DNA of 64,000 nt from IMG/VR virus record IMGVR_UViG_3300028832_000130, positions 1 to 64,000 of that record; one strand, given 5' to 3'. The position numbers were made by a program, and so were the translations under genes. The notes under the pieces were generated by a model. That model was not told where the DNA came from. It was given only the letters and a program-made list of their open reading frames with translations, and ran no database searches. This DNA comes from a virus. Its lineage: Duplodnaviria > Caudoviricetes. This document shows, in pieces, positions 22,672-56,700 of the stretch (its first letter is position 1; each line of letters starts with the position of its first letter).

Positions 22672-22673
22672 CT

Positions 22674-23120: not shown

Positions 23121-23122
23121 CT

Positions 23123-23365: not shown

Positions 23366-23367
23366 CT

Positions 23368-23754: not shown

Positions 23755-23760
23755 ATAACT

Positions 23761-24162
23761 ATGGCAACAATTAAATCATACACAGACATCTCTCAGAGCA
23801 AGACTTTGAGTAAGATACTGCCACTTGAAAGTGCGGATATGTACTATGACATTACCGCATCAGATATTGACGGAGAAAAAGCCGTCGCAGAAGTATTGCA
23901 TAGAAAACTTACAAAAAATGACTGTGAGGTGGTCGACCCATGCTGGTCGCTTGCAAGTTTGCTTGAACAGCTACCCTATGAGTTGTGTGATGATGACGGT
24001 AATTCTGTCTACTTAGAAATTAATAAAGAAGACGATTTATACCAACTTGTATATACAGACCCTTACGGTGATTTTAAAAGTATAGAAACCGATAGGTATG
24101 AGCATTTTGTTGATGCTTGCTACGAACTTATACTAAAGTTACATGAACTTAAACTTTTGTGA
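23761..24162 (+). CDS. Hypothetical phage protein
   Basis: ORF track. Confidence 0.75.
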   Translation: MATIKSYTDISQSKTLSKILPLESADMYYDITASDIDGEKAVAEVLHRKLTKNDCEVVDPCWSLASLLEQLPYELCDDDGNSVYLEINKEDDLYQLVYTDPYGDFKSIETDRYEHFVDACYELILKLHELKLL

Positions 24163-24279
24163 TTATAGACTACGATGAAAGATATTATTCGTAAACTTGG
24201 TGAGTACATAAATAACCACACCTGTAAACCTTTAGAGAATATATACTATTTCTTATGTTGGATTTATTATAGATAATTT

Positions 24280-32589: not shown

Positions 32590-33489
32590 TTAAAATACGA
32601 TACCATTGCCAAAGCCGTTACCATAGTAGCTGCCTGCATACGGAGTGTTGTTTACTGCCGTAAGATTAGGCCACTGCACGGGTACGGTGTTAGGCTGCTT
32701 GTCAGCAATCTCGGTCACCTTAGCTGCAAGTGGAGCAATTAGTGAGTTCACGTAGCCAGTGATCTGTGCTGTCTGCTGTGCGTTGTCAATCTGTCCGCGA
32801 AGCTGAGTGATGGTGTCGGCCTGTGAGTCAATCTTTGCCTGCATCTCACGCTCCTTCAAGGCACAGAACTGGTCGTTCATGGCTACGGTCTGAGCATTGA
32901 TAGCATTCAGCAAGTTGTTGGCGTTGCGGTCTGCCTGACTGCCAAGCTGGTTGGTCTGGTTCAGAGTAGCAATCTGAGCCTGATAACCCTGCTCTGTTAC
33001 GAGCAACTTGTTTTCGCAGCAACACTGCTGGAATCTAGCTGCAAGGTCACAGTTGCCTGCCTGGATAGAGTTGATAACCTGGAGTGTGCTCATGCCCTGC
33101 TGTGCAGCAAGTGTAGCAAGCGAGCTCTGAACATTCTGAACTGCTGAATTTACAGTAGCATAGTCCTGACCAAGCATGGTTGCAAGGTTCTGGATAGCAC
33201 TGCGGCTTGCCTCGCCGTTAGCGTTGATAGCGTTCATTATCAACTCACGGCCTGAATCGTTGTTCAACTGGTTGCTGATAAAGCCTGCACCTGCGCCATT
33301 ACCGAAACCGCCGCCAAAGCCGCCGTTGTTCCATCCGAAGATGGAAGCGATGATAGCCAGTCCGAACAGGTCAACGATACCGTTCATGCCGTTGCCGAAG
33401 CCGAAGCCTCCGTTACCCATGCCGCCAATGGGGATGGTGAATTGTGGCGTATTGCCCGAATTTTCGGGAATCTGATAAATATCTGCCAT
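32590..33489 (-). CDS. G/N-rich N-terminus, hydrophobic helix and Q/N-rich coiled coil with a CCC motif, cassette gene 2
   Basis: GGFGFGNG repeats, LFGLAIIASIFGW, FQQCCCENK. Confidence 0.85.
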   Translation of the reverse strand: MADIYQIPENSGNTPQFTIPIGGMGNGGFGFGNGMNGIVDLFGLAIIASIFGWNNGGFGGGFGNGAGAGFISNQLNNDSGRELIMNAINANGEASRSAIQNLATMLGQDYATVNSAVQNVQSSLATLAAQQGMSTLQVINSIQAGNCDLAARFQQCCCENKLLVTEQGYQAQIATLNQTNQLGSQADRNANNLLNAINAQTVAMNDQFCALKEREMQAKIDSQADTITQLRGQIDNAQQTAQITGYVNSLIAPLAAKVTEIADKQPNTVPVQWPNLTAVNNTPYAGSYYGNGFGNGIVF

Positions 33490-34049: not shown

Positions 34050-34367
34050 TTATGTTTGCCCTACGGCATAACCTTTCGTATTAGCAAACTGTATCATTGT
34101 TGGCTCTTCTGTCAGGTATATCCTTACGTACCTGTACTTTGTCGAGCCATATATCCTTATTCTGAATTCTGGGCCTGCCCAAGGGGTAACACGAGCCTTT
34201 GGCCAAGGGCCTTCTGCGCTTTCCGCTTTTCTGATAACCATCCTGCCTTTGTCAGGAAGGGTAACTTCGAGATATGTATCACCTGTTAGGCACCATATTT
34301 CAGATACCCAAGCGTTTTCTTCCTCGCTCCAAGCTCCGTTGATGGTTGTTATCTCTCCGTTTCTCAT
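34050..34367 (-). CDS. Hypothetical virion-associated beta protein
   Basis: ORF track; end of the capsid operon. Confidence 0.7.
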   Translation of the reverse strand: MRNGEITTINGAWSEEENAWVSEIWCLTGDTYLEVTLPDKGRMVIRKAESAEGPWPKARVTPWAGPEFRIRIYGSTKYRYVRIYLTEEPTMIQFANTKGYAVGQT

Positions 34368-35113
34368 TGCTTAACTGTTACTTTAAGGTTCTGCATGGCT
34401 ATCTCTAGCATCTTTTCGCTTCTTGCATCGCCGTATGCTGATAGCAGAAGAAAAGCGAGATAATAGATAAACGATGTCTTGACTCTTGGGGGCAGGGGAT
34501 AGTGCCTTTCCGTTACTGCAGGTTCGCCACTTGTAACGTCAAAGGCATGCTCTTCTGGGTCAACGTTGGCAACGTAAGTATATTCTGCTGACGTGCCGGT
34601 GGGCCACACTTCTATTTCACGTGTAGCCTTTTCAATCAGAACAGCCTGCGGACGGTCTGCTGTAGCGGTAGCACCATTTACATCATAAAGCTGCAAGTAC
34701 TCGTCAGAGTCCTCTGCCAACAACACCTTAACGGCTCTGTGCCAACCAGTTACCCTTACTCTTGCTAATTTTACGAAATCAGCAGGCATAGTTAGCTTTC
34801 CGGCATTTGTTCCTGTTATCTCGGTAGGAACAAGTGTACCAGATTGTGGCATATCGACGAGTATTCCTGTGTTAACGAGTACTGTATGCCCTTCTTCTTC
34901 CGTTGTCTCATCAGAACCTCCCAAAAGGTCTGTTGGGGCATACAGACTAATCCATCTTATGGCATCGCCTATCTTGGACTTGATGATGTTGTTCATCAAA
35001 CCTTCGTCGTCTGCCCCAAAGTCATACGCAGATACATCGGCGATACCAGCTACATTCAAAGCTTCTTCGTCGATGCACCAGCGTACAGCCTTTATGATGT
35101 CGTTAATTGTCAT
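34364..35113 (-). CDS. Putative head-closure/adaptor protein
   Basis: Position in the capsid operon; helical N- and C-termini around a beta core. Confidence 0.6.
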   Translation of the reverse strand: MTINDIIKAVRWCIDEEALNVAGIADVSAYDFGADDEGLMNNIIKSKIGDAIRWISLYAPTDLLGGSDETTEEEGHTVLVNTGILVDMPQSGTLVPTEITGTNAGKLTMPADFVKLARVRVTGWHRAVKVLLAEDSDEYLQLYDVNGATATADRPQAVLIEKATREIEVWPTGTSAEYTYVANVDPEEHAFDVTSGEPAVTERHYPLPPRVKTSFIYYLAFLLLSAYGDARSEKMLEIAMQNLKVTVKQ

Positions 35114-35894: not shown

Positions 35895-37622
35895 TTAGAC
35901 TGCACTGGTGTAGCCGGTGTACTCAACCCAAGCATTGGTAGAGTACTGCCATACTGTACCTGCCTTGTAGGTTACGTCGGGATCGTCGCCAGAGCCTTCG
36001 ATGGTGTAGTCCTGTGTCAGAGCAACAATTGTTCCGTCAGCAGGATTGCTTGGAAGCTTGGCAGCAGAAACAACTGCGGTACGTGAAGCGGTGTCAGGCA
36101 GAGAGAAGATGATGTCGCTAGGACCTACGATGATGGAGTTGTAGCCGCGCAATGCGATACAGTCTGCCTCGTAGTGAATCTCGCGTTTTGCATCACGGAT
36201 CTCGCCAGCGCCCTTAGACATGTCGTTGGTGAACTCCTTCTCGCCAATCTTCACATAGCGGGTAGCACCCTCCAGGTCAAGAACTACGCAAACCTCGTCC
36301 ATACCGATAGCGTCGAGACCCTGGTCCCAAGTGAAGTCGGTTGTGCCGAAGGTAGTCTTGAGGCGCTTGAAGTCGATATCCAGCTCCTTAACGTCCTCCA
36401 TCTTGATAATGCGCTTGTTGTCGCCCATGTCGAGGTTCAACAACCACTGCATGAAGGTAGAACCGCAGAAAGCGTAAGAGTGAGAACTCTGTGAGAAGGT
36501 GGTGTGCTGCAGCTTAGAGATGGCAATCAAATCGCCAACGGTGATATGGCCACGGTCAATGCTGAACGAGTTGGTTACCTGCCACAGAATACCCTTAGAA
36601 CCGTAGGCATCCTCAACAGACTGGTCGCCGTTGATTACCTGAATACGGGTCTTGGCACCCATCCAATAGGTACGTTCTGCACGGAGGTTGTAGTTGCGGA
36701 TGGCATTAGCCTTAACGTCGGCAACATGCCAAGGCATCTTCTTCTTAACCTTCTCGAAGTCGTTAGTCCAAACGATGTTCAACAGCTTCTTCTGAACGCT
36801 GAACTCTTCGTAACGAGGCTGATAGTTCTCAGGAGTAATCAGCAACTGGCTCTCGCCTGCGATAGAAGAACCTGCGCAGAGATAAGCGTTTGCAGGAAGA
36901 CCCTTGTTTGAGCTTACTCCGTTACCGGCAAACTCACGAACCTCGTAGGTGTCACCAGCAGTAGCACCGTTCTTCAATTTACCGTTGATAGGAACAACGA
37001 GCACATAGCTAGAAGTCACGTCAACGACAAACAGCTCCAGGCAACCCTCTACGGTAGTACCATCCTCTGCGTAACCGTCAATGAACGGACAGAAAACAGT
37101 AGTGCCCTTGTAGAAAGCTTTCAGCGAACCGTTGAAGTTTGATGTGGTCAGCTTCAAGCTACCATCTTCCTCCTGTGTGATTGCAGAAGTGGTACGGCCA
37201 TCCAAGGTGTCACCACCGATACGGGCGTGCTTTACCGTCCAGTTCTGAAGGTTGACTTTGCGTGCGACACGACGCGCAATGGAGAGAAGCGGAGTACGCC
37301 ACGGCTGAAACTGGGTAATCCCCTGATCCCACTCGTCGTCGATGTTGTCTTCTTTACGCTGCTGGGTAGAACTCAGCTGAGAACCGTTCAAGGTCTCACC
37401 GGCAGCACCATCGCCAGGAATGTGCAGGTCGTTATTGGCTGGGTTGGCAGGCTCGTTGGCAGCAGCTTCGGCGGCTGTTGCGGGCAGAGCGCCCTCGTCA
37501 CCAATTGGGGCATCATTAACTACGGTAGCGTCTGCCATAGCACCGCCACCACTAACTACGGCAAGGACAAACAGCACAAAGCTGAGGACTCGCCAAATGT
37601 TCACGTTCTTAATTTTCTTCAT
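35895..37622 (-). CDS. Major capsid protein (HK97-like, DUF5309/SU10-like) with an N-terminal signal/TM segment
   Basis: Lies after the scaffold-like gene and divergent from the portal; PWRTPLLSIA and YNLRAERTYWMG resemble HK97-fold MCP elements; followed by a terminator. Confidence 0.75.
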   Translation of the reverse strand: MKKIKNVNIWRVLSFVLFVLAVVSGGGAMADATVVNDAPIGDEGALPATAAEAAANEPANPANNDLHIPGDGAAGETLNGSQLSSTQQRKEDNIDDEWDQGITQFQPWRTPLLSIARRVARKVNLQNWTVKHARIGGDTLDGRTTSAITQEEDGSLKLTTSNFNGSLKAFYKGTTVFCPFIDGYAEDGTTVEGCLELFVVDVTSSYVLVVPINGKLKNGATAGDTYEVREFAGNGVSSNKGLPANAYLCAGSSIAGESQLLITPENYQPRYEEFSVQKKLLNIVWTNDFEKVKKKMPWHVADVKANAIRNYNLRAERTYWMGAKTRIQVINGDQSVEDAYGSKGILWQVTNSFSIDRGHITVGDLIAISKLQHTTFSQSSHSYAFCGSTFMQWLLNLDMGDNKRIIKMEDVKELDIDFKRLKTTFGTTDFTWDQGLDAIGMDEVCVVLDLEGATRYVKIGEKEFTNDMSKGAGEIRDAKREIHYEADCIALRGYNSIIVGPSDIIFSLPDTASRTAVVSAAKLPSNPADGTIVALTQDYTIEGSGDDPDVTYKAGTVWQYSTNAWVEYTGYTSAV

Positions 37623-37650: not shown

Positions 37651-38448
37651 TCAATATCCGTATTTCTTCATTTCGTCGAAGTCCATAGACATGCTCTTTT
37701 TCTTGGGCTTCGGTGTAACGGCCTGGCCTTGTCCCTGACTGAATGAGGGCGGAACCTGTCTCTCGTCAAAGGTCTTTACCTTGTTGGCATGTTTCTCGTT
37801 ACGGGCTCGCATAGCTGCTTCCTCACGGGCATTGGCAATGTCCTGCTCATAGTTCATGGCATGCATGATAGCAGTCCATACGTCCTTGCTGACTTCACCA
37901 CGCCAAGCGGGCAACCACACCTCATCCCAGAAGTATTCAAACATGCGGTTCTTCTGCTCATCACTAAGACCAAACTCTTTCTGAACGGCATCCAACTGCT
38001 CTACACTACGGGCAATGGCTTCATCCTTGGCGGCTTCGGCAGCTTCGCCGGCAGCCTGCCCCTTTTCCCACTCTGAGAAAGCGTCGGTGACCTTCTGCAA
38101 TACATCTGGGTCATCAAGTGCGGCTTTGATATCAATGCCGTTCTTGGCCATCCATACCAACGGGTTCTCTTCCTCATCCTGCAACATGGCACCAATCCAA
38201 CGGTGCTTGTTAAGGATGTTTGTCAACTGCTTACCGCTGTTTCTGAGATTTCTCAGCTCCTCACGGTCTCTGCCCATACGCTCATAGCGGGCTTCCTTGT
38301 CCTCAAAATCTACGTCAGGGTTATCTTCCTTCCACATCGAGGCGTACTTGTCTCGGTTGGGACGTACAGGAACCTCTTGTACCTGCTCGGCCTCCACTGC
38401 TGGCTGGCCGTTCACGTCTACTTCCGTTTTCTTCTTGATTTCTGCCAT
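37651..38448 (-). CDS. Putative scaffolding protein
   Basis: Acidic and helical, immediately upstream of the MCP; start at 38448 given the -7 box at 38472-38479. Confidence 0.65.
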   Translation of the reverse strand: MAEIKKKTEVDVNGQPAVEAEQVQEVPVRPNRDKYASMWKEDNPDVDFEDKEARYERMGRDREELRNLRNSGKQLTNILNKHRWIGAMLQDEEENPLVWMAKNGIDIKAALDDPDVLQKVTDAFSEWEKGQAAGEAAEAAKDEAIARSVEQLDAVQKEFGLSDEQKNRMFEYFWDEVWLPAWRGEVSKDVWTAIMHAMNYEQDIANAREEAAMRARNEKHANKVKTFDERQVPPSFSQGQGQAVTPKPKKKSMSMDFDEMKKYGY

Positions 38449-38471
38449 AAAATTTCGAAATTTTTTCACGG

Positions 38472-38571
38472 CAAATATATAAGATGTATCAAAAGTCTTT
38501 TCCGATTCCGAAATTGCGCCCCTAGCTTATATCGGACACGGAATAAAAAGAGTGGTTTTCGCATATTTTTG
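38472..38571. promoter_or_regulatory. Divergent late promoters with the TCGGAnnCGGAA-N20-TAnnTTTG architecture
   Basis: Motifs at 38500-38511 (minus) and 38532-38543 (plus); -7 boxes at 38472-38479 and 38564-38571. Confidence 0.7.
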
Positions 38572-38593
38572 CGGCATAAAATACAGAAAACGA

Positions 38594-40579
38594 ATGGCTA
38601 AGATAAGAGCTTTATCATCAGTAATGCCTGTAGGGTCTGTGAACGACTCTGTACGCAACCGCAAGCGTAACAGTAGCGTAAGCAACATCCCTTTTCATCG
38701 TCGCCGTAGACAAGACTTAGACCTTATAGCAAGATGCAATCAGGCTTGGAACAACCTAGAAGACGTCCGACTGGTGCGTGATCGTATTCGTCGCTACACC
38801 TACGAAGACCAGTGGGGTGATGTTATTGAGTATCGTCACGGAACGATTACTGAACGCAAATACATTCAGTCGAAGGGTAACGTTCCTTTGCAGAACAACA
38901 TCATGATTTCCATTCTCAACTCTGTAGTGGGCTTGTATGCTAAGCAGAGTGGGGAGCCTAACTGCTTTGCCGTCAAGCATGATGGGCAATGGTTATCCGA
39001 TATGATGACTGCCACCATGCAAACGTCGTGGCAGAAAACATACATGCACGACGCTCTCAAAACGGCTTTTGAGGACTTTATCATTGGCGGTGTAGCTGTC
39101 TCACGCGAGACTTACGAAGAGCGAAACGGACGCTACGACACTTGGACGGACTTCATCAATCCGAACTATGCTTTCTGGATAGGTGGCACAGATGTCCGCA
39201 TGACTGACTTGCAGATGGTCGGTGTGCTGCATGATGTTGCTCCTGGTCAGTTATACCGTAAGTTCTGCAATAGCCAGTATGGTTGGACGGTAGACGAAAT
39301 CAACAAGATATTCGAAATTGACAGCACAGACAACCATCGCTACTTCCGTTCTACAGGGTTACAACAGAACGAGCGCGACCGTCTAGAACAAATCAGCTTT
39401 GATACACCATCGGACAACTCAAAGTGCCGACTTATCGAGGTTTGGACGAAAGAGACCAAGACTCGTTACCAGTGTTACGACCCGCTGGCAGAGAATGGTG
39501 ACGAGGTGGAATACCGTATTGAGCTGAATGACAAATGGCGCATTGACCGGGAGAACCAGCTTCGCATACAGCAGTATTTGCAGGTTGGTATTCCAGAAGA
39601 TGAATGGGCACTGATAGAAACTGAGAAGATAGAGGATGAATACTGGTACTACACCTTTATGGCTCCTGATGGTACGGTTATCGCCGAGGGCGAAAATCCC
39701 TACGAGACGAAAGACCATCCGTTTACCATCCGTCTCTATCCTTACGTCAACTCCGAGGTGCACCCGTTCATGGGCAACATCATCGACCAGCAGCGCTACA
39801 TCAACCGTCTTATCATCATGCACGACATGGCGGCACGCTCAGCAGCTAAGGGTCTGACTATTTTCCCAATAGAGAACATCCCCGATGGCTATACCAAGCA
39901 GGATATAGCAGACGAAATGACTGAGTACGACGGTATTCTGTTCTTTGAGACCAACCGCATGAATCCGAACCTACGCCCGGAGATTATTTCTTCTGGTGCC
40001 GTACAGCTTGGTACACAGGATCTCTTGCAAATGCAGCTTAACCTTTCCCGTGAGATTACCAATGTATCGGGAGCACTACAAGGCAAGACGCCTTCTGCTG
40101 GTACTTCGGCTGCTCGTTACGCACAAGAGACACAGAACGCTACCACATCGCTTGAATCACTCATGCAGGGCTTCACTTCGTTTACCGAGCAGATTGCCCG
40201 CAAGAAGTGTATGTTCATCAAGCAGTTCTATCGCAATGGTCGTATGGTCTACAACTCCATGCGTCAGCTTATCGACTACGACAACCTCTCTTGTCGTGAT
40301 GTGGACTTTGAAATCAGCATCAAGGAAGCAGCAGCAACAGCAGCCTATCAGACCTATGTCAACGATCAGGCCATGCAACTTCTCCAGCTTGGTATCATCG
40401 ACGGAGAAACATACCTCAACATCTGTAACCTGCCATTCAAGGACGATGCTCTTGCAGCAATTGAACAGCGCAAGGCTCAACAGCTTGCCATGCAGCAACA
40501 GATGGAACAGCAGCTTGCCGCCAATCCTGCTAACCAGCAACAGGTCGCTAACGCACAACAAATGCTGCAGGCAGCATAA
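38594..40579 (+). CDS. Portal protein (P22/N4-like)
   Basis: About 660 aa; helical N-terminus, LQNNIMISILNSVVG, IIDQQRYINRL, SGALQG and a Q-rich barrel-like tail. Confidence 0.8.
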   Translation: MAKIRALSSVMPVGSVNDSVRNRKRNSSVSNIPFHRRRRQDLDLIARCNQAWNNLEDVRLVRDRIRRYTYEDQWGDVIEYRHGTITERKYIQSKGNVPLQNNIMISILNSVVGLYAKQSGEPNCFAVKHDGQWLSDMMTATMQTSWQKTYMHDALKTAFEDFIIGGVAVSRETYEERNGRYDTWTDFINPNYAFWIGGTDVRMTDLQMVGVLHDVAPGQLYRKFCNSQYGWTVDEINKIFEIDSTDNHRYFRSTGLQQNERDRLEQISFDTPSDNSKCRLIEVWTKETKTRYQCYDPLAENGDEVEYRIELNDKWRIDRENQLRIQQYLQVGIPEDEWALIETEKIEDEYWYYTFMAPDGTVIAEGENPYETKDHPFTIRLYPYVNSEVHPFMGNIIDQQRYINRLIIMHDMAARSAAKGLTIFPIENIPDGYTKQDIADEMTEYDGILFFETNRMNPNLRPEIISSGAVQLGTQDLLQMQLNLSREITNVSGALQGKTPSAGTSAARYAQETQNATTSLESLMQGFTSFTEQIARKKCMFIKQFYRNGRMVYNSMRQLIDYDNLSCRDVDFEISIKEAAATAAYQTYVNDQAMQLLQLGIIDGETYLNICNLPFKDDALAAIEQRKAQQLAMQQQMEQQLAANPANQQQVANAQQMLQAA

Positions 40580-40596: not shown

Positions 40597-41301
40597 ATGA
40601 CTATCACAATAGCAACAGTTATATCGGCAATTAAGCGCCATCTCTCCATAATCGGAAAGCGGCTCTACACCAAAGACGGAAAGAATATGTTTTCGGACAT
40701 CACCCTTTCCTCAGCAGAAGATACGCCCATCCTTACGCAGTACATCAACGCTTCGGTGCAGAATGTTGAGGCGATGTTGAAGCAGTTTATCACAGCTTCT
40801 TCCTATTCTGCATCGGCCATTAACGTAACGATTACTAATACTCGTGGCGACAGCGATTTCCAAAACCGCGTGGCCGACTTGATAGACTCTTATGTCAGGC
40901 TTAACTCCATTGGGGAATATCTCTCTATGGTACACCCTGACCTTGCCAAGAAGTATCAGGACGATGCTTTGCAGCGTATGGAGGCACTTGTGGAGTATGT
41001 GGTCTACAAGAAACCACCCACAGCACCTACTTATCAATATCCTTCCGAACTGACAGTTTCGGAAAATGCCGTAGATATAGGGGTCGGGGAGGAATATGAC
41101 GTGAAGTATAGCATTTCCGAGGGTGCTATTGATGATATTGAAATAGCTGTTGAAGATGCTACGCTCATTGATGCTATGCGTACTGTGGCTGGGTTTGTCA
41201 TTAAAGGCAAGCTGTTAGGGCACACTCCTGTTAAGTTGTTCTCTCGCCACAACAAAGAGGTTTCAGCAACCATTCAAGTTTACGTTACAGACCAATCTTA
41301 G
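40597..41301 (+). CDS. Adaptor-like virion protein with a C-terminal Ig-like domain
   Basis: Paralogous to 41307..42059 (PTYQYPSELTV...IGVGEEYDVKYSISEGAIDDI). Confidence 0.7.
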   Translation: MTITIATVISAIKRHLSIIGKRLYTKDGKNMFSDITLSSAEDTPILTQYINASVQNVEAMLKQFITASSYSASAINVTITNTRGDSDFQNRVADLIDSYVRLNSIGEYLSMVHPDLAKKYQDDALQRMEALVEYVVYKKPPTAPTYQYPSELTVSENAVDIGVGEEYDVKYSISEGAIDDIEIAVEDATLIDAMRTVAGFVIKGKLLGHTPVKLFSRHNKEVSATIQVYVTDQS

Positions 41302-41306
41302 AAACT

Positions 41307-42059
41307 ATGGATAATACAATACTATTAACGCTCTACAAGCCACAGATTCTTGAATCGGTCAAGAACGAGACATATAAGAGTGGCCGCTTTGAAAAGGCAG
41401 CAGACGCCAAGGCTATATCTACAGCTTATGAGATACAGGCAGGAAATGAAGAATACCAAGAGCGTCTTTTAGAGCGCTCTTTCAGTACAAGTCTGGAAGA
41501 GTTGAAAACGAACCTTTCCGATTACCTGCAGGATAGCGGAGGCTCTACTGGTGACAACATCTATTCCTCGAAGAGTGAAAGCAATGTCATAATCTCTCTC
41601 GTTGTCGGCAACAGATTTAACAAAAGCTATACGGATTCTCTGGCAAAGCTTTGTGCCAAATATGTTGAGGAAGTAATGCTTGTGGATTGGTGGCGACCCA
41701 TCAACGAGAAGAAATCATCCCTTTACGCTCAATTCGTAGAACGTGACCTTACCGCTATAAAACGATGCTTCAACAAAACTGCTCCCGTAGCACCTTCCTA
41801 CAAATATCCCACTACGCTCAATGTCGTTGGCTCCGTAATAGCTATAGGTGTTGGCGAAGAGCGTACCGTCACTTACTCAATATCGGATGGCGCTATCGAC
41901 GATATTAACATTCGTGTTCAAGATCCTAATGTGTGTGGTGTCGGTTCTTCAAATGAGGGCGCTACAGTCATTGGAAAGAACTTCGGAGAAACTTACATTC
42001 AGCTCTATTCTCGTCACAACGAGGAACTGTCTAAGACCATTCAGGTTCGCGTAGTTTAG
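41307..42059 (+). CDS. Adaptor-like virion protein with a C-terminal Ig-like domain
   Basis: PSYKYPTTLNV...IGVGEERTVTYSISDGAIDDI. Confidence 0.7.
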   Translation: MDNTILLTLYKPQILESVKNETYKSGRFEKAADAKAISTAYEIQAGNEEYQERLLERSFSTSLEELKTNLSDYLQDSGGSTGDNIYSSKSESNVIISLVVGNRFNKSYTDSLAKLCAKYVEEVMLVDWWRPINEKKSSLYAQFVERDLTAIKRCFNKTAPVAPSYKYPTTLNVVGSVIAIGVGEERTVTYSISDGAIDDINIRVQDPNVCGVGSSNEGATVIGKNFGETYIQLYSRHNEELSKTIQVRVV

Positions 42060-42082
42060 TTCCTATAATATAAATAAGGTGT

Positions 42083-42727
42083 ATGGATATACTTCACAAC
42101 AAAGAACAAGGAGGCTACAGACCCGTTCCGTTGAAAGGGATGCGCCCACCTCTTCCAGATGATAACTGGCCTTATCACAATCACCCGTCAACACCACACG
42201 ACCCTCAGTATGGCATCAAAGACCCCAAGTCAGAACGCCATATCTTCATCAGTCGTGATGCCGTCATGTTTGCGGTAGACACGCAGATACAGATGATAGC
42301 AGAGTCACGTCGAAAAGACGATGGCCGTGATGATGACCGTCTTACCAATGCCACTACCAAGTATCAGCAGATGTTCTATAGTTGGTTCGATACGCATGTG
42401 GGAAAGGCAAAGAATAAGATGCAGGCATTTGTGTTGGAAAAGTCAAAGGCTACCAACATGAACACCATAAAAGATAAGGAAGAGATAGACATCGAACTGT
42501 TAATGCCAGAATGGTGGGACGATACCATCTTTGACCAGCTTACCTCAGCGGTTAACGATTATGTCGTTAATGCCATCCTGCAGGAGTACTTCACCGTCAC
42601 GCTGACATCTAAAGACCCCGTGACAGTCGATAAGGCAACGCTCGCCATCGATGCTCTTAACGACATTTGCAAGCTGGCAAATGCCAACAAGCCTGGAACA
42701 ATCCGTAAACACCTTAGCCCATTTTGA
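42083..42727 (+). CDS. Helical adaptor-like virion protein
   Basis: Same helical layout (…LTSAVNDYVVNAILQEYF…) as the two upstream genes. Confidence 0.6.
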   Translation: MDILHNKEQGGYRPVPLKGMRPPLPDDNWPYHNHPSTPHDPQYGIKDPKSERHIFISRDAVMFAVDTQIQMIAESRRKDDGRDDDRLTNATTKYQQMFYSWFDTHVGKAKNKMQAFVLEKSKATNMNTIKDKEEIDIELLMPEWWDDTIFDQLTSAVNDYVVNAILQEYFTVTLTSKDPVTVDKATLAIDALNDICKLANANKPGTIRKHLSPF

Positions 42728-42748: not shown

Positions 42749-43264
42749 ATGAATATTAGGTACGTTAAGATATTAGTGTTTTTTATGTTGGTGGGGTCGT
42801 ATTTCTTTTTACCGAAGTACGGCTTCACTTCTTTTGACGGTTCTTTTTCTGGATACGACATAGCAAACCACTTCCTATATCCATTCTCGCATGCCAACAT
42901 CTGGCACCTCTTGGCAAACATGCTGTGTCTTTTCATGATTCGTTGCAAGATGCACCTCATAGCAACCTATCTGATTGCCGTGCTGTGCTCATTCCTGCCA
43001 TCATTCTCTATATACGACTGCGTTATGCAATGTGGTTTTGCTGCTTTGTCTGAACCTACATATGGCTTTAGTGGCATCCTCTTCGCTATGGTCGGTATCT
43101 CTTGGGGTAAGATACATCGTCTTAGGGACATGGTTGCCCGAAACAAGTGGTTCCTTATCATTCCCGCTTTCCTACCTCACGTCAACTTCCTCATTCATAT
43201 ATACTGCCTCTTTGCAGGCTACCTATACGGAACATTATGCGCCAAGAAATCCGAGAACTCGTAA
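42749..43264 (+). CDS. Rhomboid-family intramembrane serine protease
   Basis: H48-x4-H53-x3-N57 (SHANIWHLLAN), catalytic G106-F-S108-G109, and catalytic H150 in HIYCLFAG; multiple TM segments. Confidence 0.82.
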   Translation: MNIRYVKILVFFMLVGSYFFLPKYGFTSFDGSFSGYDIANHFLYPFSHANIWHLLANMLCLFMIRCKMHLIATYLIAVLCSFLPSFSIYDCVMQCGFAALSEPTYGFSGILFAMVGISWGKIHRLRDMVARNKWFLIIPAFLPHVNFLIHIYCLFAGYLYGTLCAKKSENS

Positions 43265-45390
43265 ACGAGAACCACAACCGCCGCCAGCTTATCTACGGCC
43301 CATATGACCAACTCACGGGTATAGGCTGCTACGGTTTTGCAGAAGGTCTTCGCAAGCGCGTAGTCATTCCAGACTGCATGATACCAGAAATGTTTGTCAT
43401 GAAGGAAACCTTAGAGACTGGTATCTTCCATGAGGTGTTGCGCTTCGGCACTATTCGCAGGTTTATTGAAGAGGGCTGTCACAGAGACTATGATGCTGAC
43501 TACCATCAGGACGTAGAAGAGGCATTGTTCCAAGCTCGTTGTGCTGACGATCCGGAGTTTGCATTTATCATTACTGACAAGATTGTGGATAAGGTGTCTG
43601 GCAAGATGATACCTTTCACCCTTCGCTATGCCCAGCGAGTACTCTTGAAGGTGTTTGAAGAGCGCAGACGTGCTGGTAAGGCTATCCTTGTTGTATTGTT
43701 GAAGGCTCGTCAGTGGGGTGGTTCTACGCTTACACAGATGTATATGAAGTGGATGCAGGGCTATCGCCACCCGAATGGATGGAACGCCGCTATCGTCACG
43801 CAGGCAGACTCTACCTCTAAGAAGATTAAGGCTATGTACCGCAAATCTTTGGAGGTTCAGCCCGGATGGACGATTGGTATGCCTGGTGCCAAACTGGAAA
43901 TGACACGCTACGAGAACTCTGACTCTGACTTTCAGATATCCGATGGAAAATTCCTTGTCCGTTCTTCCATTCTCTCTATTGCATCGTTCAACTCCTTTGA
44001 GAAGTGTCGTGGTGACAACTACAAGCTGGCACACTTCTCTGAGGTGGCATCGTGGAAGAAGACTCCCGAACACGACCCTGACGAGGTGCGCGCCAATATC
44101 CAAGGTGGTTTCTTAAATCTGCCCGACGAGATGGCGGTCTATGAGTCTACGGGTAAGGGTAACTCTGGCTTCTTCTACGACTTGTGTCAGGACGCTATGG
44201 CCGAAAACTCCACCTCTGCCTACTCCTTTGTGTTCATTCCTTTCTTCCTCATTGAGCAGGACATGAAACCCATGTGGCACAATGGCTTTACAGAGAAGGA
44301 GGAAGAAGAGTTTGCAGAATGGCTGTGGGCTAACCGCAACAAGGACAGTGAGGTGCCTGGATTCCGTGAGTCGGGCAAGTTTTTCTGGAAGATATGGAAG
44401 ATGGGCGCTTGCTTTGAGGCTATCAACTGGTATCGCTATAAGCGTAACGAGCACAAGACGCATGGTTATATGGCTTCTGAGGCTCCCATCGACCCCGTTG
44501 AGGCTTTCCGTAATTCTGGTAACGCAGTCTTTGACCCATACTCCATCGACGACCTCAAAGACGACTGTCAGGCACCAAAGAAGCCGATGTACTATGCCGA
44601 TGTGGTACTTAAACCCTTCGAGAAACGTTCTCGTGCTGTCTATCTGGATGCAAAGGTTGTTGTTCGCGAGGACAACCAAGGCGAGTTAAAGGTTTGGTCT
44701 GCCCCCAACAACCACATCTTCAAGGTCAAGAACCGCTACCTTGTCTCAGTCGATATTGGTGGTGCTTCCGACAAGGCTGACTATACGGTAATGACTGTCA
44801 TTGACCAGATGGGATTGTGTAAGGAGGTCAAAGGCCGTCCCCGTGTGGTAGCCCGTTGGCGAGGCCATGTCCGTCACGATATTCTTGCATGGAAAGCTGC
44901 TGCCTTGGCTCACTACTACGACGATGCTCTGCTGATTATCGAGAGTAACACGGCAGACCGAGAGAAAGATACCAATACCGAGGGCGACCACTTCGGAACC
45001 ATCATCAACGAGATTTCTAAGTTCTACCCCAATCTCTATCAGCGCAACAAGACTCCCGAAAGCGTGCAAGAGGGTATCGAACCCATCTACGGTTTCCAGA
45101 CCAACGTCAAGACCAAGCAGTGGATAATAGACAACCTTATTGCTTGCGTTGACGATAAGCTGTGGGAAGAACCAGACGAGCAGATGTATATGGAGTTGGG
45201 ATGGTATGAGCGCGACCCCGATACAGGCAAGATGGGCAACCAGCCAGGCTCTAACCGTCACGACGACGTGCTCATGTCTACTGCCATTGGTCTCTATGTA
45301 GCCTACAACAACGACATCTACCGTCCTTCATGGCGCACAGAAGCACCCAAGGAGAAGAAACAACGCATTCACACAGAAGCAGAAATATAA
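43237..45390 (+). CDS. terL: Terminase large subunit
   Basis: Walker A LKARQWGGST, Walker B AHFSEVASW, coupling motif YESTGKG, nuclease SVDIGG and C-terminal HDDVLMS. Start at MRQEIREL. Confidence 0.92.
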   Translation: MRQEIRELVNENHNRRQLIYGPYDQLTGIGCYGFAEGLRKRVVIPDCMIPEMFVMKETLETGIFHEVLRFGTIRRFIEEGCHRDYDADYHQDVEEALFQARCADDPEFAFIITDKIVDKVSGKMIPFTLRYAQRVLLKVFEERRRAGKAILVVLLKARQWGGSTLTQMYMKWMQGYRHPNGWNAAIVTQADSTSKKIKAMYRKSLEVQPGWTIGMPGAKLEMTRYENSDSDFQISDGKFLVRSSILSIASFNSFEKCRGDNYKLAHFSEVASWKKTPEHDPDEVRANIQGGFLNLPDEMAVYESTGKGNSGFFYDLCQDAMAENSTSAYSFVFIPFFLIEQDMKPMWHNGFTEKEEEEFAEWLWANRNKDSEVPGFRESGKFFWKIWKMGACFEAINWYRYKRNEHKTHGYMASEAPIDPVEAFRNSGNAVFDPYSIDDLKDDCQAPKKPMYYADVVLKPFEKRSRAVYLDAKVVVREDNQGELKVWSAPNNHIFKVKNRYLVSVDIGGASDKADYTVMTVIDQMGLCKEVKGRPRVVARWRGHVRHDILAWKAAALAHYYDDALLIIESNTADREKDTNTEGDHFGTIINEISKFYPNLYQRNKTPESVQEGIEPIYGFQTNVKTKQWIIDNLIACVDDKLWEEPDEQMYMELGWYERDPDTGKMGNQPGSNRHDDVLMSTAIGLYVAYNNDIYRPSWRTEAPKEKKQRIHTEAEI

Positions 45391-53713: not shown

Positions 53714-56700
53714 TTATTCGATGTCTTGCGTCTTGTCAAGCTCTTCTACGACCATCTGTAGTGTACTGTTGTAGAGTGCTCTTGCGTTCTTTCGCTTTCT
53801 GCCTTCTGCTTGGTTGGCTGCGGTATTCAGTTGCTTCAACGTCTTTTCTGCCTCTCTTACCATTTCCATGCGTACAAAGTCCTTGCCCTTTGCTTCTTCC
53901 ATGTACTTCATGAGGTGTTCAGGATTGCTGCCCATATCGGCTTCGTACCCCTTTATATTGTGATACTTCTCGTTTGCCTCTTCGCGATACTTACGATACT
54001 TAGCCTTGATACGGTACAGGTCTGTGCGCTCGTCGCCCTGCTGCCAGAAGGCGCGGAAGAACTCTATCTTTCGCATGTTAAAGTCAGCCTCATCATCGGT
54101 GAACGCCCATTTATAGGCATCTCCTACGGCAGAGCCAGTGTTCATAAAGAACTTGCCTGGGCCACCAGTATATTGCTCTAACAGATATTGCATGCTGCTT
54201 GGGTTTATCTGTGCCCATCCGCGCTTCACATCGTCACCTCCACTTATATCGTTAAGCCACTTTGACAATGAAATATAAGCGGAGTTGGTGTTGCCAAGAG
54301 TCATCTGGTATTCTGGTGTCCATTCGTCACCTGGGTAGCGGTCTTCCCTAAAGATAGGTTTGCCCGTCCAGCCCAAGTTCTCGCCTACAGCCACCAATGG
54401 AGCTACTGGTGAGCAAATTCTTCCTGCGAATTCTGCTACAGGATTGAACTCGTTGGTAATCTTCGTCTCAAAGTCAACGGGTGAGAATACGTTTAGGAAT
54501 CCTATAACTTCGTCATACAACGTCTTGTCAATGGGTTTTAGCTTCGGGAATAATGTGATACCTGCTATCATGTCACCCATAGAGTAGAACGCTGCCAGCT
54601 CCTGACCCATTGGGATAACAAGGAAGTCGTTCTTTCCACAACCAGGAATCCATCCAGTATAGATACACAAGTTCTTTCTGCGCACCCACTCTGGCAGGTT
54701 TGCATACGGATCGTCGTCGCCATCGCCTCCAGCAAGAGCATAGAGTGCTGCATTGAGTACAGGCATCAGCATGCCCATAGCGAAAGGTGGTGCTGCATAT
54801 CGCGTGAGAAGTCTCCCTGCGTACTTATAGTTGATAGAGCCATCTGGATTCTTCAAGCCTCGGAAGATGTTACAGATAGCCTGCACGGTGGCATTAAAGA
54901 ACATCTTATTTGCCATCAGTATCTGCGAAGCCTCTCCAGCAATCTTGGCTGCTCTAGTAACACTCTTTTTGTCGCTCTTGAAGCTTGCCGTCTTTCTGCC
55001 TGCCCCCTTCTTGTTAAAGTTTACAGTTACTTCCTTAGCGTCGTAAGCAGAGCGGGCCTTGGTGCGGCCTGCATAGTGACGGGATGCGCGGTAGGTAGCA
55101 AAGCGAGCATTGTTCTCAATGGCCTCATTCATTGCCTCTACAGCACCAAGTGTCTTATCGAAGAAACTATTTGTCAACTTCTTTACCTTGCCAGGAGTGC
55201 TTAGCATGCCTTCCATCTCCTTCTGCAGTTCTGCCACCTTCTTCATGTGAACAAACCCTGTTATACCACCATTGTCCATGAAGTCTTTGAAGTCGCGCTC
55301 CATTTCTTTGCTCTCGTCAAGGGTGCCAGCACGATACTTCTTGAACAATGAAATCATGTGTGGCAACTGCTGTCTGTAGTATTTCTGGGCTTCTGACTCA
55401 TAGTCCATGCCTTCACGTGCCGCGAGAATGGCACCGAAGTGAGTCCAGTCACGGAGCATATTTCTTCCGAGGAACGTAATGTTGTATGATGTGCTAACGG
55501 TCTGCTGGAACTGTTTGAGGCTGGCAACCATCTTGTTTACTGTTCCCTTTCCTGACTCATAGCGTAGCTCTCCATTGATAGCTTGCGCCATGCGTGGGTT
55601 GCCCATTACTATCATGGTCTTGCGCTGTCCGTTAATTATCACTTCGACGATGTGCTCTCTCATGCGCTTCTTATCAACCTTGTAGTCGAATTTAGCCTTG
55701 CTATTCAGTCGCTTTGCCTCGCCTCTGGCTTCCAGTTCTGCCATGCGGGTATTAAAGTCGCTGACAGCCTGCTCAACCTCCTGCGGGGTCATGTCTGAAT
55801 CAATGCGTGGGAAATCAACTATAAAGTCTCCCGTTGTCGGGTCAAGCACAGCCCATGTGTCTTGTATCTTTACAAGGTCGTTTTCGTGTGCCTGACACAG
55901 GCGGTAGAAGTGTTGCTTCACCACATTCTGATTACCGTCAGAGATAGCTTTATAGGTCATGGCGAACAAGGTTGAAAGCGGATAGTTGGCTTTGCTCTTA
56001 CGACCCTTGGCATTTCTCAACAGACCTCCCACACTGTTTTTATTGTTGGATTCTGTCATATACTGCCAGTGGTCTTGTGCTGCCTCTCCCTCATTGAATC
56101 CTCGCATAGGAACGTAGAAGTGGAACATGTTCTTTATGCGGTCGTGAACCGACTCAGACAACATGCCGCAGTCTCTGTACTTATCCAATCCAAGGTTTGA
56201 ACACAAGTTTATCTGCTCCCAGAGCCTGTTACGCAACTCATCGCCCATCTTCTCTTCCTGTTTTTGCAGTTTGCTGAGAATGTCGGCCTCGCTATAGTTA
56301 CCTTTCTCGTCACCATACATATCTGTAAAGCCTGAGTAGTCATGCTTCTCTGCATTATAGCGCTTGTTGATGTTGGACTTGATGAAGTCATCCATTTCCT
56401 CTATATACTGAGCAAATGAAATCTCTCCATCCTTCAACTTCTGATAGTTCTCGTTATTCATTGCAGCAAAGTCCTTCTCCATCTCGTCGAGAAGTTCTTT
56501 TTCATCATCTTCCAATTCTTTGCTGCGCTGAGCCTTTAGCCAATCTCTTACATAGAGCACTCGGTTGCGCTCAAAGCCATGCTTGGTGAAAAGATAGCGG
56601 TCAACATCACCCGTCTGCCATCCCATCTTTTCGCATAGCTGTAATACGGTTCCTTCAAGTGGTCTACGGTAGATATTGGTAAACTGCTCCTGCTCTGTGA

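What the first reader, a model, noticed from the sequence alone, without database searches (positions are those of the whole stretch)
42749..43264. Phage-encoded rhomboid protease in the head-assembly operon: candidate membrane-coupled capsid maturation system
Seen: a 171-aa multi-TM protein with the rhomboid signatures H-x4-H-x3-N, G-F-S-G (S108) and H150-x6-G. It lies between the portal/adaptor genes and terL and overlaps the terL start by 28 nt. No HK97/ClpP/S49-type prohead protease is recognisable in the window. Established: rhomboids (GlpG, AarA) use a Ser-His dyad to cut TM substrates at small residues beside helix-destabilising Gly/Pro motifs. Inference: the MCP leader (TM followed by SGGGAMA) is a plausible substrate, so this phage may use an intramembrane protease as its capsid maturation protease. 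This would be an unusual morphogenesis route and is the best candidate here for an undescribed system. An alternative substrate is the TM helix of the 299-aa cassette protein (LFGLAIIASIFGW, flanked by Gly-rich tracts).
Basis: partly seen in the sequence, partly recalled or inferred. Interest (0 to 1): 0.9.

Follow-up and report, generated by a model that had tools for sequence, protein, structure and literature searches.

The report
Phage rhomboid protease, leader-bearing capsid protein
A large family of gut Bacteroidales phages carries an apparently working membrane-embedded (rhomboid) protease among its head-building genes, and it occurs only in phages whose coat protein starts with a secretion-signal-like leader, which points to an untested, membrane-linked step in making a phage capsid.

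Summary
ORF 42749-43264 (+) is a minimal six-helix rhomboid. It passes Pfam's cut-off, its catalytic Ser108/His150 and the H-x4-H-x3-N motif are invariant in 29 relatives, and its model matches GlpG at Z 10.2. It overlaps terL by 28 nt. No S78, S77, ClpP or S49 protease is found in the 74.8-kb genome.

- **For a link to the capsid leader:** every MCP of the family that I could pair with a rhomboid carries a basic / hydrophobic / G..[ML]A leader. I saw no rhomboid with a leaderless MCP. A nested leaderless clade lacks the rhomboid, and its MCP starts exactly at the leader's M-A. Its other neighbours vary, but it nearly always lies in or beside the head and packaging genes.
- **Against a strict dependence:** two lineages keep a leader without a rhomboid. 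There are few independent evolutionary events. The missing prohead protease is normal for scaffold-using P22/SU10-like podophages. Canonical rhomboid geometry does not fit an N-in signal peptide well.

Cleavage of the leader is my best guess (about 0.4), and it is not shown. I found no publication on this. The same scan noted the pair earlier on other genomes. The cultured phages BS-TP4 and BKO1-TP3 make it testable.

The parts
42749..43264 (+). Minimal six-TM rhomboid-family serine protease, 171 aa
   Evidence: Pfam PF01694 at 38.1 bits against a 22.6-bit cut-off. More than 150 metagenomic relatives of 140-204 aa. Model against GlpG at Z 10.2. The positive-inside rule read from the sequence gives N-in/C-in, like GlpG.
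42890..42919 (+). TM2 motif H48-x4-H53-x3-N57 (HANIWHLLAN)
   Evidence: H48, N50, H53 and N57 are invariant in A1. A profile alignment to GlpG places it on HFSLMHILFN.
43064..43075 (+). TM4 G106-F-S108-G109, predicted catalytic serine
   Evidence: G106, S108 and G109 are invariant in A1. The motif aligns to GlpG G-L-S201-G.
43196..43219 (+). TM6 H150 (predicted catalytic histidine) to G157
   Evidence: H150 and G157 are invariant and G161 nearly invariant in A1.
43237..43264 (+). 28-nt overlap of the rhomboid 3' end with the terL start
   Evidence: Read from the sequence. The terL N-terminus is conserved from residue 11 onwards in A4.
43237..45390 (+). Large terminase subunit, 717 aa
   Evidence: The A4 profile hits T4 gp17 at 5.6e-8 and other TerL nuclease domains. 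The Walker-A-like KARQWGGST motif is invariant.
35895..37622 (-). Major capsid protein, 575 aa, SU10/HK97-type
   Evidence: The A3 profile hits PDB 9in6 'major capsid of VP1' at 2e-8. Orthologues carry Pfam SU10_MCP.
37533..37622 (-). MCP leader, residues 1-30: basic n-region, 12-residue hydrophobic core, SGGGAMA; candidate rhomboid substrate
   Evidence: Present in all 107 MCPs of the first loci, 67 distinct leaders, and in 116 of 137 representatives at 50% identity. It is the only such motif in six frames of the genome. Leaderless kin start at its M-A.
37651..38469 (-). Scaffolding-like protein directly upstream of the MCP gene (272 aa from GTG 38469; 265 aa from ATG 38448)
   Evidence: phrog_22323. 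It sits next to the MCP gene in all lineages, including the leaderless ones. The charged, helical composition is read from the sequence.
38552..40579 (+). Portal protein, first gene of the operon that ends in the rhomboid and terL
   Evidence: phrog_156 at E 8.8e-50. Orthologues carry P22_portal.
32590..33489 (-).
   Evidence: Homologues in 17 of 25 rhomboid-bearing genomes. The same architecture persists in the rhomboid-less genome G034.

Best explanation
The gene encodes an active, stripped-down rhomboid intramembrane serine protease. It has six helices, no cytoplasmic domain and a short L1 loop. It is a vertically inherited gene of the head and packaging module in a large family of 60-75-kb Bacteroidales podophages. 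It is co-transcribed and probably translationally coupled with terL (inferred from the overlap).

Its most likely substrate is the phage's own major capsid protein. That protein is made with a conserved signal-peptide-like leader: net charge about +3, 12-14 hydrophobic residues, then G-x(2-6)-[ML]-A.

Proposed course of events (all inferred):
1. The leader takes the new coat protein to the inner membrane.
2. The chain is cut at or near [ML]A.
3. The leaderless coat protein assembles around the separate scaffolding protein, as in P22- or SU10-like phages.

The rhomboid would either make this cut or clear the leader stubs left in the membrane.

**Shown here:** the family, fold and invariant catalytic residues; the gene context; the phyletic pattern.
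**Not shown:** membrane insertion of the leader, any cleavage, and which protease acts.
For: **Intact enzyme under selection.** Pfam match above the cut-off. H48, N50, H53, N57, G106, S108, G109, H150 and G157 are invariant. GlpG-like model at Z 10.2. The Ser and His are kept even in a sister clade that matches the A1 profile only weakly (E 1e-5 to 1e-14).

**Core late gene rather than a moron.**
- It overlaps terL in the window and lies directly upstream of terL in L003, L004 and the cultured phages BS-TP4 and BKO1-TP3, which are only 28% identical.
- In the GAD..FAMA group, 18 of 18 loci that hold terL have it directly upstream of terL.
- In L394 and L395 it lies 1.4 kb from the scaffold and MCP genes while terL is 10 kb away.
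- Identity to the window's rhomboid tracks terL identity across loci (Spearman 0.67, n=63, points not independent).

**Phyletic pattern.**
- All 27 MCPs with a readable N-terminus in the rhomboid-anchored loci have the leader.
- 21 of 21 near-complete leader-MCP genomes have exactly one rhomboid.
- The sister clade has both: 28 of 28 loci.
- The leaderless clade B is nested in the leader-bearing MCP tree. It has no rhomboid in 24 genomes by the tool, in 4 complete genomes by full-sensitivity hmmsearch, or within 10 kb in about 50 loci.
- I saw no rhomboid paired with a leaderless MCP.

**Position of the cut.** The clade-B MCP begins at the leader's M-A: P0162 M30-A31-E32 aligns to P0180 M1-A2-E3. 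A singleton contig (L397) repeats this, starting MAVD, and also has no rhomboid upstream of terL.

**Other points.** The leader motif occurs once in the genome. No leader has Q after the predicted site, whereas this phage's secreted protein at 2203-2499 does (IFS|QD); the Q-rule is as described in PMC10367356. No S78, S77, ClpP or S49 protease is present.
Against: **Leader without rhomboid.** G056 has terminal repeats and is 100% complete. It keeps a hydrophobic leader ending LAMA but has no rhomboid by two HMMs run with --max and no other six-TM protein. The G059/L331-L339 lineage also has a leader, and the slot between its terS-like gene and terL is empty. So the leader can work, or be cut, without the rhomboid.

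**Few independent events.** There is one clear joint loss plus one singleton contig, so shared descent explains much of the co-occurrence.

**Topology.** By the positive-inside rule the enzyme sits like GlpG, with the active site towards the periplasm. From my own knowledge, rhomboids as a rule cut N-out helices near their outer end. The leader's charges predict N-in, with G..[ML]A at the outer end. That is the orientation and site of host signal peptidase I (small residues at -1 and -3), and full export would place the capsid body in the periplasm.

**The missing prohead protease carries no weight.** Scaffold-using phages with a P22-type portal do not need one, and the leaderless, rhomboid-less relatives manage with the same scaffold.
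Confidence: 0.4

Rival explanations
1. The rhomboid is an active late protease, but its substrate is another membrane protein. It could be a phage virion or ejection protein with an N-out helix flanked by glycines, such as the 299-aa protein, or a host inner-membrane protein. On this reading the MCP leader is cut by host signal peptidase I, or is never cut.
For: - The 299-aa protein has an uncharged or acidic N-terminus, a Gly-rich run, a hydrophobic helix and another Gly-rich run. From my own knowledge, this is the orientation rhomboids usually accept.
- Homologues occur in 17 of 25 rhomboid-bearing genomes.
- Leader-bearing phages without a rhomboid exist.
- The leader has an A-x-A-type site suited to signal peptidase I.
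Against: - The 299-aa family keeps the same Gly-rich/TM/CCC architecture in G034, which has no rhomboid. BLAST did not detect it in BS-TP4, BKO1-TP3 or six other rhomboid-bearing genomes.
- The only feature seen to disappear along with the rhomboid is the MCP leader.
- A host-directed role would not explain why the gene stays inside the head module in every lineage.
Confidence: 0.3
2. The rhomboid belongs to lysis control. It would process a holin, antiholin or spanin to time lysis.
For: Rhomboids cut single-pass membrane proteins. The phage encodes a four-TM holin-like protein and a lipoprotein with a C-terminal anchor that resembles a unimolecular spanin.
Against: - The lysis cassette (spanin-like 71602-72018, holin-like 71109-71597, lysozyme-like endolysin 70623-71102 of the full record) lies about 27 kb away on the other strand, outside the window.
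- In no lineage examined does the rhomboid sit beside an endolysin. It sits with terL, the portal, the scaffold and the MCP.
- Rhomboid-less relatives still carry three-TM holin-like genes.
Confidence: 0.07
3. The protein acts without proteolysis. It would be a membrane anchor or organiser for the portal, terminase or procapsid, comparable in role to T4 gp40, which helps the portal start head assembly at the membrane.
For: It overlaps terL and sits where terS-side genes usually lie. From my own knowledge, inactive rhomboid-like proteins (iRhoms, derlins) act as membrane organisers.
Against: The catalytic Ser and His, the TM2 H/N residues and the GxSG context are invariant over the whole family, including the clade that matches the A1 profile only at E 1e-5 to 1e-14. 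That is not the pattern of a pseudoprotease.
Confidence: 0.08
4. It is an accessory lysogenic-conversion or superinfection-exclusion gene that alters the host envelope and only happens to lie in the late region.
For: Relatives are temperate: there is an integrase in L003, and BS-TP4 and BKO1-TP3 were isolated as temperate phages (PMC12694917). Rhomboid genes have been listed as morons in Stenotrophomonas phages (PMC5834331, abstract only).
Against: The gene overlaps terL inside a late operon and has no obvious space for a promoter of its own. It is present once in 21 of 21 near-complete genomes and diverges in step with terL. Morons are usually patchy and sit at module borders.
Confidence: 0.05

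Closest known systems
E. coli / H. influenzae GlpG (rhomboid protease, MEROPS S54, Pfam PF01694)
   Same: Six-helix core. Ser in G-x-S-G on TM4 and His on TM6. H-x4-H-x3-N on TM2. Small-residue packing motif on TM6. The predicted topology is the same. The model aligns to GlpG residues 91-272 at Z 10.2.
   Different: Only 171 aa. There is no N-terminal cytoplasmic domain. L1 is cut down to about 25 residues with no W-R pair; the family-specific invariant residues P22/G25/F26 and Y44 stand there instead. About 15% identity. It is phage-encoded inside a head and packaging operon. The substrate is unknown.
Providencia stuartii AarA acting on TatA
   Same: From my own knowledge, this is a bacterial rhomboid that removes a short N-terminal extension from a small membrane-anchored protein and so activates it. 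It is the nearest precedent for a rhomboid trimming the N-terminus of a protein whose bulk stays in the cytoplasm.
   Different: TatA is N-out and keeps its helix after the cut. The phage leader has a basic N-terminus that predicts N-in, and its conserved motif lies C-terminal to the hydrophobic core. The MCP must end up soluble. AarA has seven helices.
Rhombosortase with GlyGly-CTERM sorting signals (TIGR03902)
   Same: A minimal-size rhomboid dedicated to one conserved sorting signal made of glycines, a hydrophobic helix and basic residues. The MCP leader has the same three elements in mirror order, with the glycines again expected at the outer face.
   Different: The HMM score is 18.8 bits against a cut-off of 84, so it is not a member. 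The signal is N-terminal rather than C-terminal and has the opposite chain direction.
Prohead maturation proteases (HK97 gp4 S78, T4 gp21 S77, ClpP- and S49-type)
   Same: The hypothesised role is the same: removing an N-terminal part of the coat protein before or during head maturation.
   Different: There is no homology, and none of these families is present. Those enzymes are soluble and work inside the procapsid. A rhomboid could act only on coat protein that is at the membrane and not yet assembled.
Predicted signal peptides on MCPs of Porphyromonas gingivalis 'Nixviridae' phages (PMC10367356)
   Same: This is a published note that some Bacteroidota phage MCPs are predicted to start with signal peptides.
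   Different: Those authors assume removal by the phages' own prohead proteases. No rhomboid is mentioned, and the word does not occur in the paper.
P22 / SU10-type podophage head assembly
   Same: P22-type portal, SU10-type MCP and adaptor, a separate scaffolding protein and no prohead protease.
   Different: From my own knowledge, those model phages have neither a hydrophobic coat-protein leader nor a membrane protease in the head module.

Membership tests
Rhomboid family (Pfam PF01694 / MEROPS S54) | Match to the family HMM above the curated cut-off | tested here: met
   38.1 bits against 22.6, E 2.2e-9, residues 42-165 on profile positions 8-141 of 143.
Rhomboid family (Pfam PF01694 / MEROPS S54) | Six-transmembrane-helix core fold | tested here: met
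   The AF2 model has helices at 3-20, 35-63, 70-81, 108-122, 133-141 and 144-170. VIA-align gives Z 8.2-10.2 for 26 rhomboid protease entries over model residues 1-168; the best unrelated chain scores Z 4.0. The Foldseek E-values alone were weak.
Rhomboid family (Pfam PF01694 / MEROPS S54) | Catalytic Ser in a G-x-S-x motif on TM4 and catalytic His on TM6 | tested here: met
   G106-F-S108-G109 and H150 are invariant in 29 sequences. They are kept in the sister-clade rhomboids (GASA or GFSS, and H).
Rhomboid family (Pfam PF01694 / MEROPS S54) | TM2 H-x4-H-x3-N (GlpG H145/H150/N154) | tested here: met
   H48, H53 and N57 are invariant and align to the GlpG motif.
Rhomboid family (Pfam PF01694 / MEROPS S54) | W-R motif in the L1 loop (typical of most active rhomboids, not universal) | tested here: not met
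   L1 is LPKYGFTSFDGSFSGYDIANHFLYPFS, with no W-R pair. P22, G25, F26 and Y44 are invariant instead.
Rhomboid family (Pfam PF01694 / MEROPS S54) | Intramembrane proteolytic activity | not testable with these tools
   This needs an enzyme assay.
Rhombosortase (TIGR03902) | Match to the equivalog HMM above the cut-off | tested here: not met
   18.8 bits against 84.
Rhombosortase (TIGR03902) | GlyGly-CTERM substrates encoded in the same genome | not tested
   I ran no dedicated search. The only C-terminal anchor I noticed is the spanin-like protein, which has no GlyGly.
Canonical prohead proteases (S78, S77, ClpP-type, S49) | Match to any of the four Pfam models anywhere in the genome | tested here: not met
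   No match at E<=1 in the 74,779-bp record, while the control genomes matched.
Sec-type (signal peptidase I) signal peptide, for the MCP leader | Basic n-region, 7-15-residue hydrophobic core, small residues at -1 and -3 | tested here: met
   Median net charge +3. P1 is A or S and P3 is mostly A, V, L or G in 84 of 116 representatives. This is my own rule-based reading; no signal-peptide predictor was available.
Sec-type (signal peptidase I) signal peptide, for the MCP leader | Bacteroidota Q-rule (Gln at +1 of signal peptidase I substrates) | tested here: not met
   P1' is A, V, G, E, D, M, T or F among the commonest, with Q not among them and none in the 67 leaders listed. The phage's secreted protein at 2203-2499 does have Q. 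The rule is as cited in PMC10367356. It is a tendency, not a requirement.

The most novel reading that the evidence does not exclude
These phages build their heads by a membrane-coupled route. The coat protein is delivered to the inner membrane by a Sec-type leader. It is held there, away from premature assembly and perhaps from host sensors of capsid protein. A phage-encoded rhomboid then sets it free. This would be the first tailed-phage capsid pathway that depends on intramembrane proteolysis, and the first natural substrate assigned to a viral rhomboid.
Probability: 0.25. Interest if true: 0.9.

Novelty: new variant of a known kind. Interest (0 to 1): 0.72.

Why it matters
Tailed-phage capsids are taken to assemble from soluble coat protein in the cytoplasm. 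When they are matured by cleavage, the protease is a soluble enzyme inside the procapsid.

Here a widespread group of human-gut phages (BS-TP4 was found in 31% of 930 viromes, PMC12694917) pairs two unexpected features. One is a coat protein with a conserved export-type leader. The other is a conserved, apparently active intramembrane protease in the head module. The protease is never seen without the leader.

If the two are enzyme and substrate, this would add a new kind of capsid maturation step. It would also give a bacterial-type rhomboid a defined natural substrate, and few of those are known. Even if they are not, a leader-bearing HK97-type coat protein needs explaining.

Two cultured temperate Bacteroides phages carry both features, so the question can be put to experiment directly.

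Tried and rejected
**Jobs that gave no usable result**
- Co-folding the rhomboid (A1) with MCP residues 1-60 (A3) returned 'no answer'. I use it neither for nor against binding.
- phmmer of the single terL sequence against PDB found nothing. A profile of 13 orthologues did.
- Pfam found nothing for the window's own MCP, terL, scaffold or neighbouring genes at E<=0.01. Identities rest on profiles, PHROGs and orthologues.
- P0197 and P0148 had no relatives in viral contigs, and P0148 none in metagenome contigs.
- Megablast of 10 kb of the window against the phage collection found nothing.

**Results that needed a second method**
- The Foldseek E-values for the model were not significant. The VIA-align second look settled the fold.
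- The first-look filter of the genome search missed true rhomboids in G046 and G057. My own hmmsearch --max found them. I therefore re-scanned five complete genomes myself before calling them rhomboid-less.

**Apparent exceptions that fell away**
- A ClpP-type protease in G061 looked at first like support for 'leader without rhomboid has a prohead protease'. It belongs to a second, unrelated head module on the same provirus record.
- 'Leaderless' representatives P0142, P0268, P0247 and P0213 turned out to be start-codon miscalls, or to have hydrophobic leaders further upstream.

**Readings rejected**
- Lysis role: the lysis cassette is 27 kb away.
- Replacement of terS: related phages have a small terS-like gene upstream of the rhomboid.

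**Literature**
Five full-text searches found no paper describing a rhomboid in Bacteroides phages or linking a rhomboid to a capsid protein.
Full report
**1. The observation**

The ORF at 42749-43264 (+) encodes 171 residues. It matches Pfam Rhomboid above the curated cut-off, at 38.1 against 22.6 bits.

A search of 5.8 billion proteins found 156 relatives at E<=0.001. Those listed are 140-204 residues long, nearly all carry the same Pfam domain, and several lie on contigs of 70-75 kb. In an alignment of 29 of them (54-81% identical), H48, N50, H53, N57, G106, S108, G109, H150 and G157 never vary. These are the rhomboid TM2 H-x4-H-x3-N motif, the TM4 G-x-S-G motif with the catalytic serine, and the TM6 histidine with its glycine.

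An AlphaFold2 model (pLDDT 73) aligns over its whole length with the GlpG core. Twenty-six rhomboid protease entries score Z 8.2-10.2, iRhom2 scores 6.2, and the best unrelated chain 4.0. Foldseek's own E-values were weak.

Counting charges in the loops gives N-terminus +2, L2 +2, L4 about +4 and C-terminus +1, against L1 -1, L3 -2 and L5 0. That is GlpG's orientation, with the active site opening towards the periplasm. This is read from the sequence and is an inference.

The L1 loop is reduced to about 25 residues and has no W-R pair. There is no cytoplasmic domain. The protein is a minimal but, by every sequence criterion, intact rhomboid.

**2. Surroundings**

The window is the first 64 kb of a 74,779-bp virus record that CheckV rates complete.

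Upstream on the same strand lie the portal (phrog_156) and three small genes. Two of these are paralogues (phrog_19255). Downstream, overlapping by 28 nt, is a 717-residue protein. A profile of its orthologues hits T4 gp17 and other large terminases.

On the other strand, diverging from the portal, lie a scaffolding-like protein and then a 575-residue protein. The family profile of the latter hits a solved podophage capsid protein, and its orthologues carry Pfam SU10_MCP. An SU10-type adaptor follows.

The lysis genes lie about 27 kb away, beyond the window: a spanin-like lipoprotein with a C-terminal anchor, a four-helix holin-like protein and a lysozyme-like endolysin.

Pfam models for the four usual prohead protease families find nothing in the whole record. 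A phage with a P22-type portal and a separate scaffolding protein is not expected to have a prohead protease.

**3. The capsid leader**

The MCP begins MKKIKNVNIWRVLSFVLFVLAVVSGGGAMA, followed by about 65 acidic, Pro/Ala-rich residues before the conserved body. The leader is not an artefact of start choice, for these reasons:
- All 107 MCPs in the first 148 loci have it, in 67 distinct versions. This holds down to 22% body identity in the cultured phages BS-TP4 and BKO1-TP3.
- A leaderless-body profile was searched against 1.8 billion representatives and found 722 family members. Of the 137 full-length ones among the best 150, 116 have the hydrophobic N-terminus.
- Its form is constant: median net charge +3, 12-14 hydrophobic residues, and a glycine within the next few positions in 77 of 84. 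Then comes [ML] followed by A or S, which was the anchor I used to define those 84. A sub-family has AM[TC]A-D instead.
- Gln does not follow the site, although a genuinely secreted protein of this phage has it (IFS|QD). Gln at +1 is the known habit of Bacteroidota signal peptidase I substrates (PMC10367356).
- The motif occurs nowhere else in six frames of the genome.

**4. Does the rhomboid travel with the leader?**

The lineages I could score are tabulated below.

| Lineage | MCP leader | Rhomboid |
|---|---|---|
| 64 viral contigs found with the rhomboid | present in all 27 MCPs with a readable N-terminus | present |
| 80 contigs found with the MCP; 21 near-complete ones with no rhomboid within 10 kb | present | exactly one elsewhere in 21 of 21 |
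| GAD..FAMA group | present | directly upstream of terL in 18 of 18 loci that hold terL |
| FGVxDAxAM[TC]AD group (L394, L395) | present | 1.4 kb from scaffold/MCP, terL 10 kb away |
| P0162-like clade (sister of clade B) | present | weakly matching (E 1e-5 to 1e-14) but catalytically intact, 1.3 kb from the MCP gene, in 28 of 28 loci |
| Clade B | absent | absent |
| G056 (terminal repeats, 100% complete) | present, ends LAMA | absent |
| G059 / L331-L339 | present, hydrophobic | not found; slot upstream of terL empty |
| L397 (singleton, 10.8 kb) | absent | not found; slot filled by a terS-like gene |

*The rhomboid's position.* Its position within the genome varies between lineages, and in one lineage it lies 3-5 kb from terL. 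It nearly always lies in or beside the head and packaging genes; in L003 an integrase and a RadC-like gene lie upstream.

*Clade B.* A clade of relatives has homologous terL (about 35% identity), portal and scaffold, but MCPs that start MAE.. or MDGE.. with a stop codon a few codons upstream. On a tree of MCP bodies this clade is nested among leader-bearing branches, with local support of 100 for the enclosing clade. It has no rhomboid in 24 genomes by the tool. It has none in four complete genomes scanned with two HMMs at full sensitivity, and none within 10 kb in about 50 loci. I re-scanned the genomes myself because the tool's first-look filter had missed two true rhomboids.

*Where clade B's MCP starts.* BLASTP aligns residue 1 of the clade-B MCP (M-A-E) with M30-A31-E32 of its leader-bearing kin, the end of the ..GGGVL-M-A motif. 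The natural deletion therefore makes almost exactly the protein that cutting after [ML]A would make. This is good indirect evidence that the leader is removed there in the other phages. It says nothing about which enzyme does it.

*A possible second joint loss.* One 10.8-kb contig (L397) sits inside the GAD..FAMA group. Its MCP starts MAVD, where its kin have ..FAMA-VD. A 134-residue terS-like gene sits where its kin have the rhomboid. It has no close relatives, so I count it as tentative.

**5. Exceptions**

G056 keeps a hydrophobic leader ending ..LAMA but has no rhomboid, no other six-helix protein, and a terS-like gene directly upstream of terL.

A second lineage (G059, 76% complete, and L331-L339) has a hydrophobic N-terminal segment on the MCP. 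The slot between its terS-like gene and terL is empty.

The pattern is therefore nested: the rhomboid implies the leader, but the leader does not imply the rhomboid. That is what one expects if the enzyme needs the leader while something else, most simply host signal peptidase I, can deal with the leader too. It also fits plain co-inheritance with a few losses. The number of independent events is small: one firm joint loss, one tentative joint loss, and one or two losses of the rhomboid alone.

**6. The alternative substrate**

The 299-residue protein has a Gly-rich run, a hydrophobic helix, another Gly-rich run, a coiled coil and a CCC motif. Its acidic, uncharged N-terminus would allow the N-out orientation that rhomboids usually cut.

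Homologues are detectable in 17 of 25 rhomboid-bearing genomes. The same architecture is also present in a rhomboid-less clade-B genome. It tracks the rhomboid less well than the MCP leader does. It is not excluded.

**7. How it most likely works**

I commit to the following at about 0.4. The enzyme is active and is made late together with terL. It acts on the MCP leader at the inner membrane, either making the cut near [ML]A or clearing the leader stubs. The freed coat protein then assembles on the scaffold as in P22- or SU10-like phages.

The weak point is geometry. The leader's charges predict N-in with the motif at the outer face. That suits the position of a periplasm-facing active site but not the usual chain direction. 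It would also require that the capsid body is not exported. One possibility is that only the acidic linker enters the translocon and slides back after the cut. That is speculation. The co-folding job gave no verdict.

The rivals are another substrate with host signal peptidase I doing the leader (0.3), a non-catalytic membrane organiser (0.08), lysis control (0.07) and a conversion gene (0.05).

**8. Comparison with what is known, and novelty**

The protein is a member of the rhomboid family. The HMM, the fold and all catalytic motifs are met; the L1 W-R motif is not. It is not a rhombosortase (18.8 bits against 84).

The nearest functional precedent is AarA trimming the N-terminus of TatA. 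The nearest formal resemblance is the rhombosortase with its GlyGly-CTERM signal, of which the leader is a mirror image.

One paper notes predicted signal peptides on MCPs of Porphyromonas phages and assigns their removal to prohead proteases. The paper that describes BS-TP4 and BKO1-TP3 does not mention the rhomboid, although the GenBank record of BS-TP4 labels the gene. Five full-text searches found nothing that links a phage rhomboid to a capsid protein.

The same scan had already noted this pair on other genomes. One earlier follow-up said the two features 'were lost together once'. I re-derived that here and add the exceptions in section 5.

I rate it a new variant of a known kind, with interest 0.72. 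If the membrane-coupled maturation reading is right (about 0.25), it would be a new kind of capsid pathway.

Noticed in passing
window 53714-64000 (-), continuing to 69250 in the full record: A single 5178-residue ORF. Its counterparts in related contigs carry AAA_34, Helicase_C_4, LPD3, ART-PolyVal and LPD38 domains, and one is annotated 'DarB-like antirestriction' in BKO1-TP3. This is a polyvalent protein, presumably injected with the DNA.
   Followed up: no
full record G000 70623-72018 (-), outside the window: Lysis cassette in three parts: a 138-aa lipoprotein with a C-terminal anchor (like a unimolecular spanin), a 162-aa four-helix holin-like protein and a 159-aa lysozyme-like endolysin.
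   Followed up: partly
window 40597-42727 (+): Three consecutive genes of 234, 250 and 214 aa lie between the portal and the rhomboid. The 250-aa and 214-aa products both hit phrog_19255; the 234-aa product hits phrog_35482. The first two end in a similar Ig-like segment (..DIGVGEE..V.YSIS.GAIDDI..). They may be duplicated head-decoration or neck proteins.
   Followed up: no
window 2203-2499 (+): A 98-aa early protein with a classic signal peptide and Gln at +1 (..TPIFS|QD). It follows the Bacteroidota Q-rule, unlike the MCP leader.
   Followed up: partly
L001 11510-11944; L369 3462-3905; G056 34106-34486; L397 3445-3849: A small gene of 124-148 aa lies directly upstream of the rhomboid, or of terL where the rhomboid is missing. 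It shares a ..SRLP.PRF[YW]I[ST]P.. motif and is a candidate small terminase or HTH protein. I could not identify a counterpart in the window.
   Followed up: partly
G034 2787-3752 (-) and window 32590-33489 (-): The 299-aa Gly-rich/TM/coiled-coil protein family keeps an invariant-looking CCC motif across very distant phages.
   Followed up: partly
G061 (record behind L351) 17500-24200: This 'provirus' record holds a second, unrelated head module: a portal, terL, a ClpP-scaffold fusion protease and a 401-aa MCP. It lies beside the fragment with the SU10-type MCP. The cause is two adjacent prophages or a chimeric assembly.
   Followed up: partly
G046 and G057 (records behind L231 and L240): the genome search reported no rhomboid, with 0 candidates at the first look. 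A full hmmsearch with the same alignment found one at E 4e-13 and 1e-12. Negative answers from that tool need a second method.
   Followed up: yes
L003 1538-2692: A tyrosine integrase and a RadC-like gene lie a few kb upstream of the rhomboid-terL pair in one relative. With the temperate isolates BS-TP4 and BKO1-TP3, this suggests the family is at least partly temperate.
   Followed up: no
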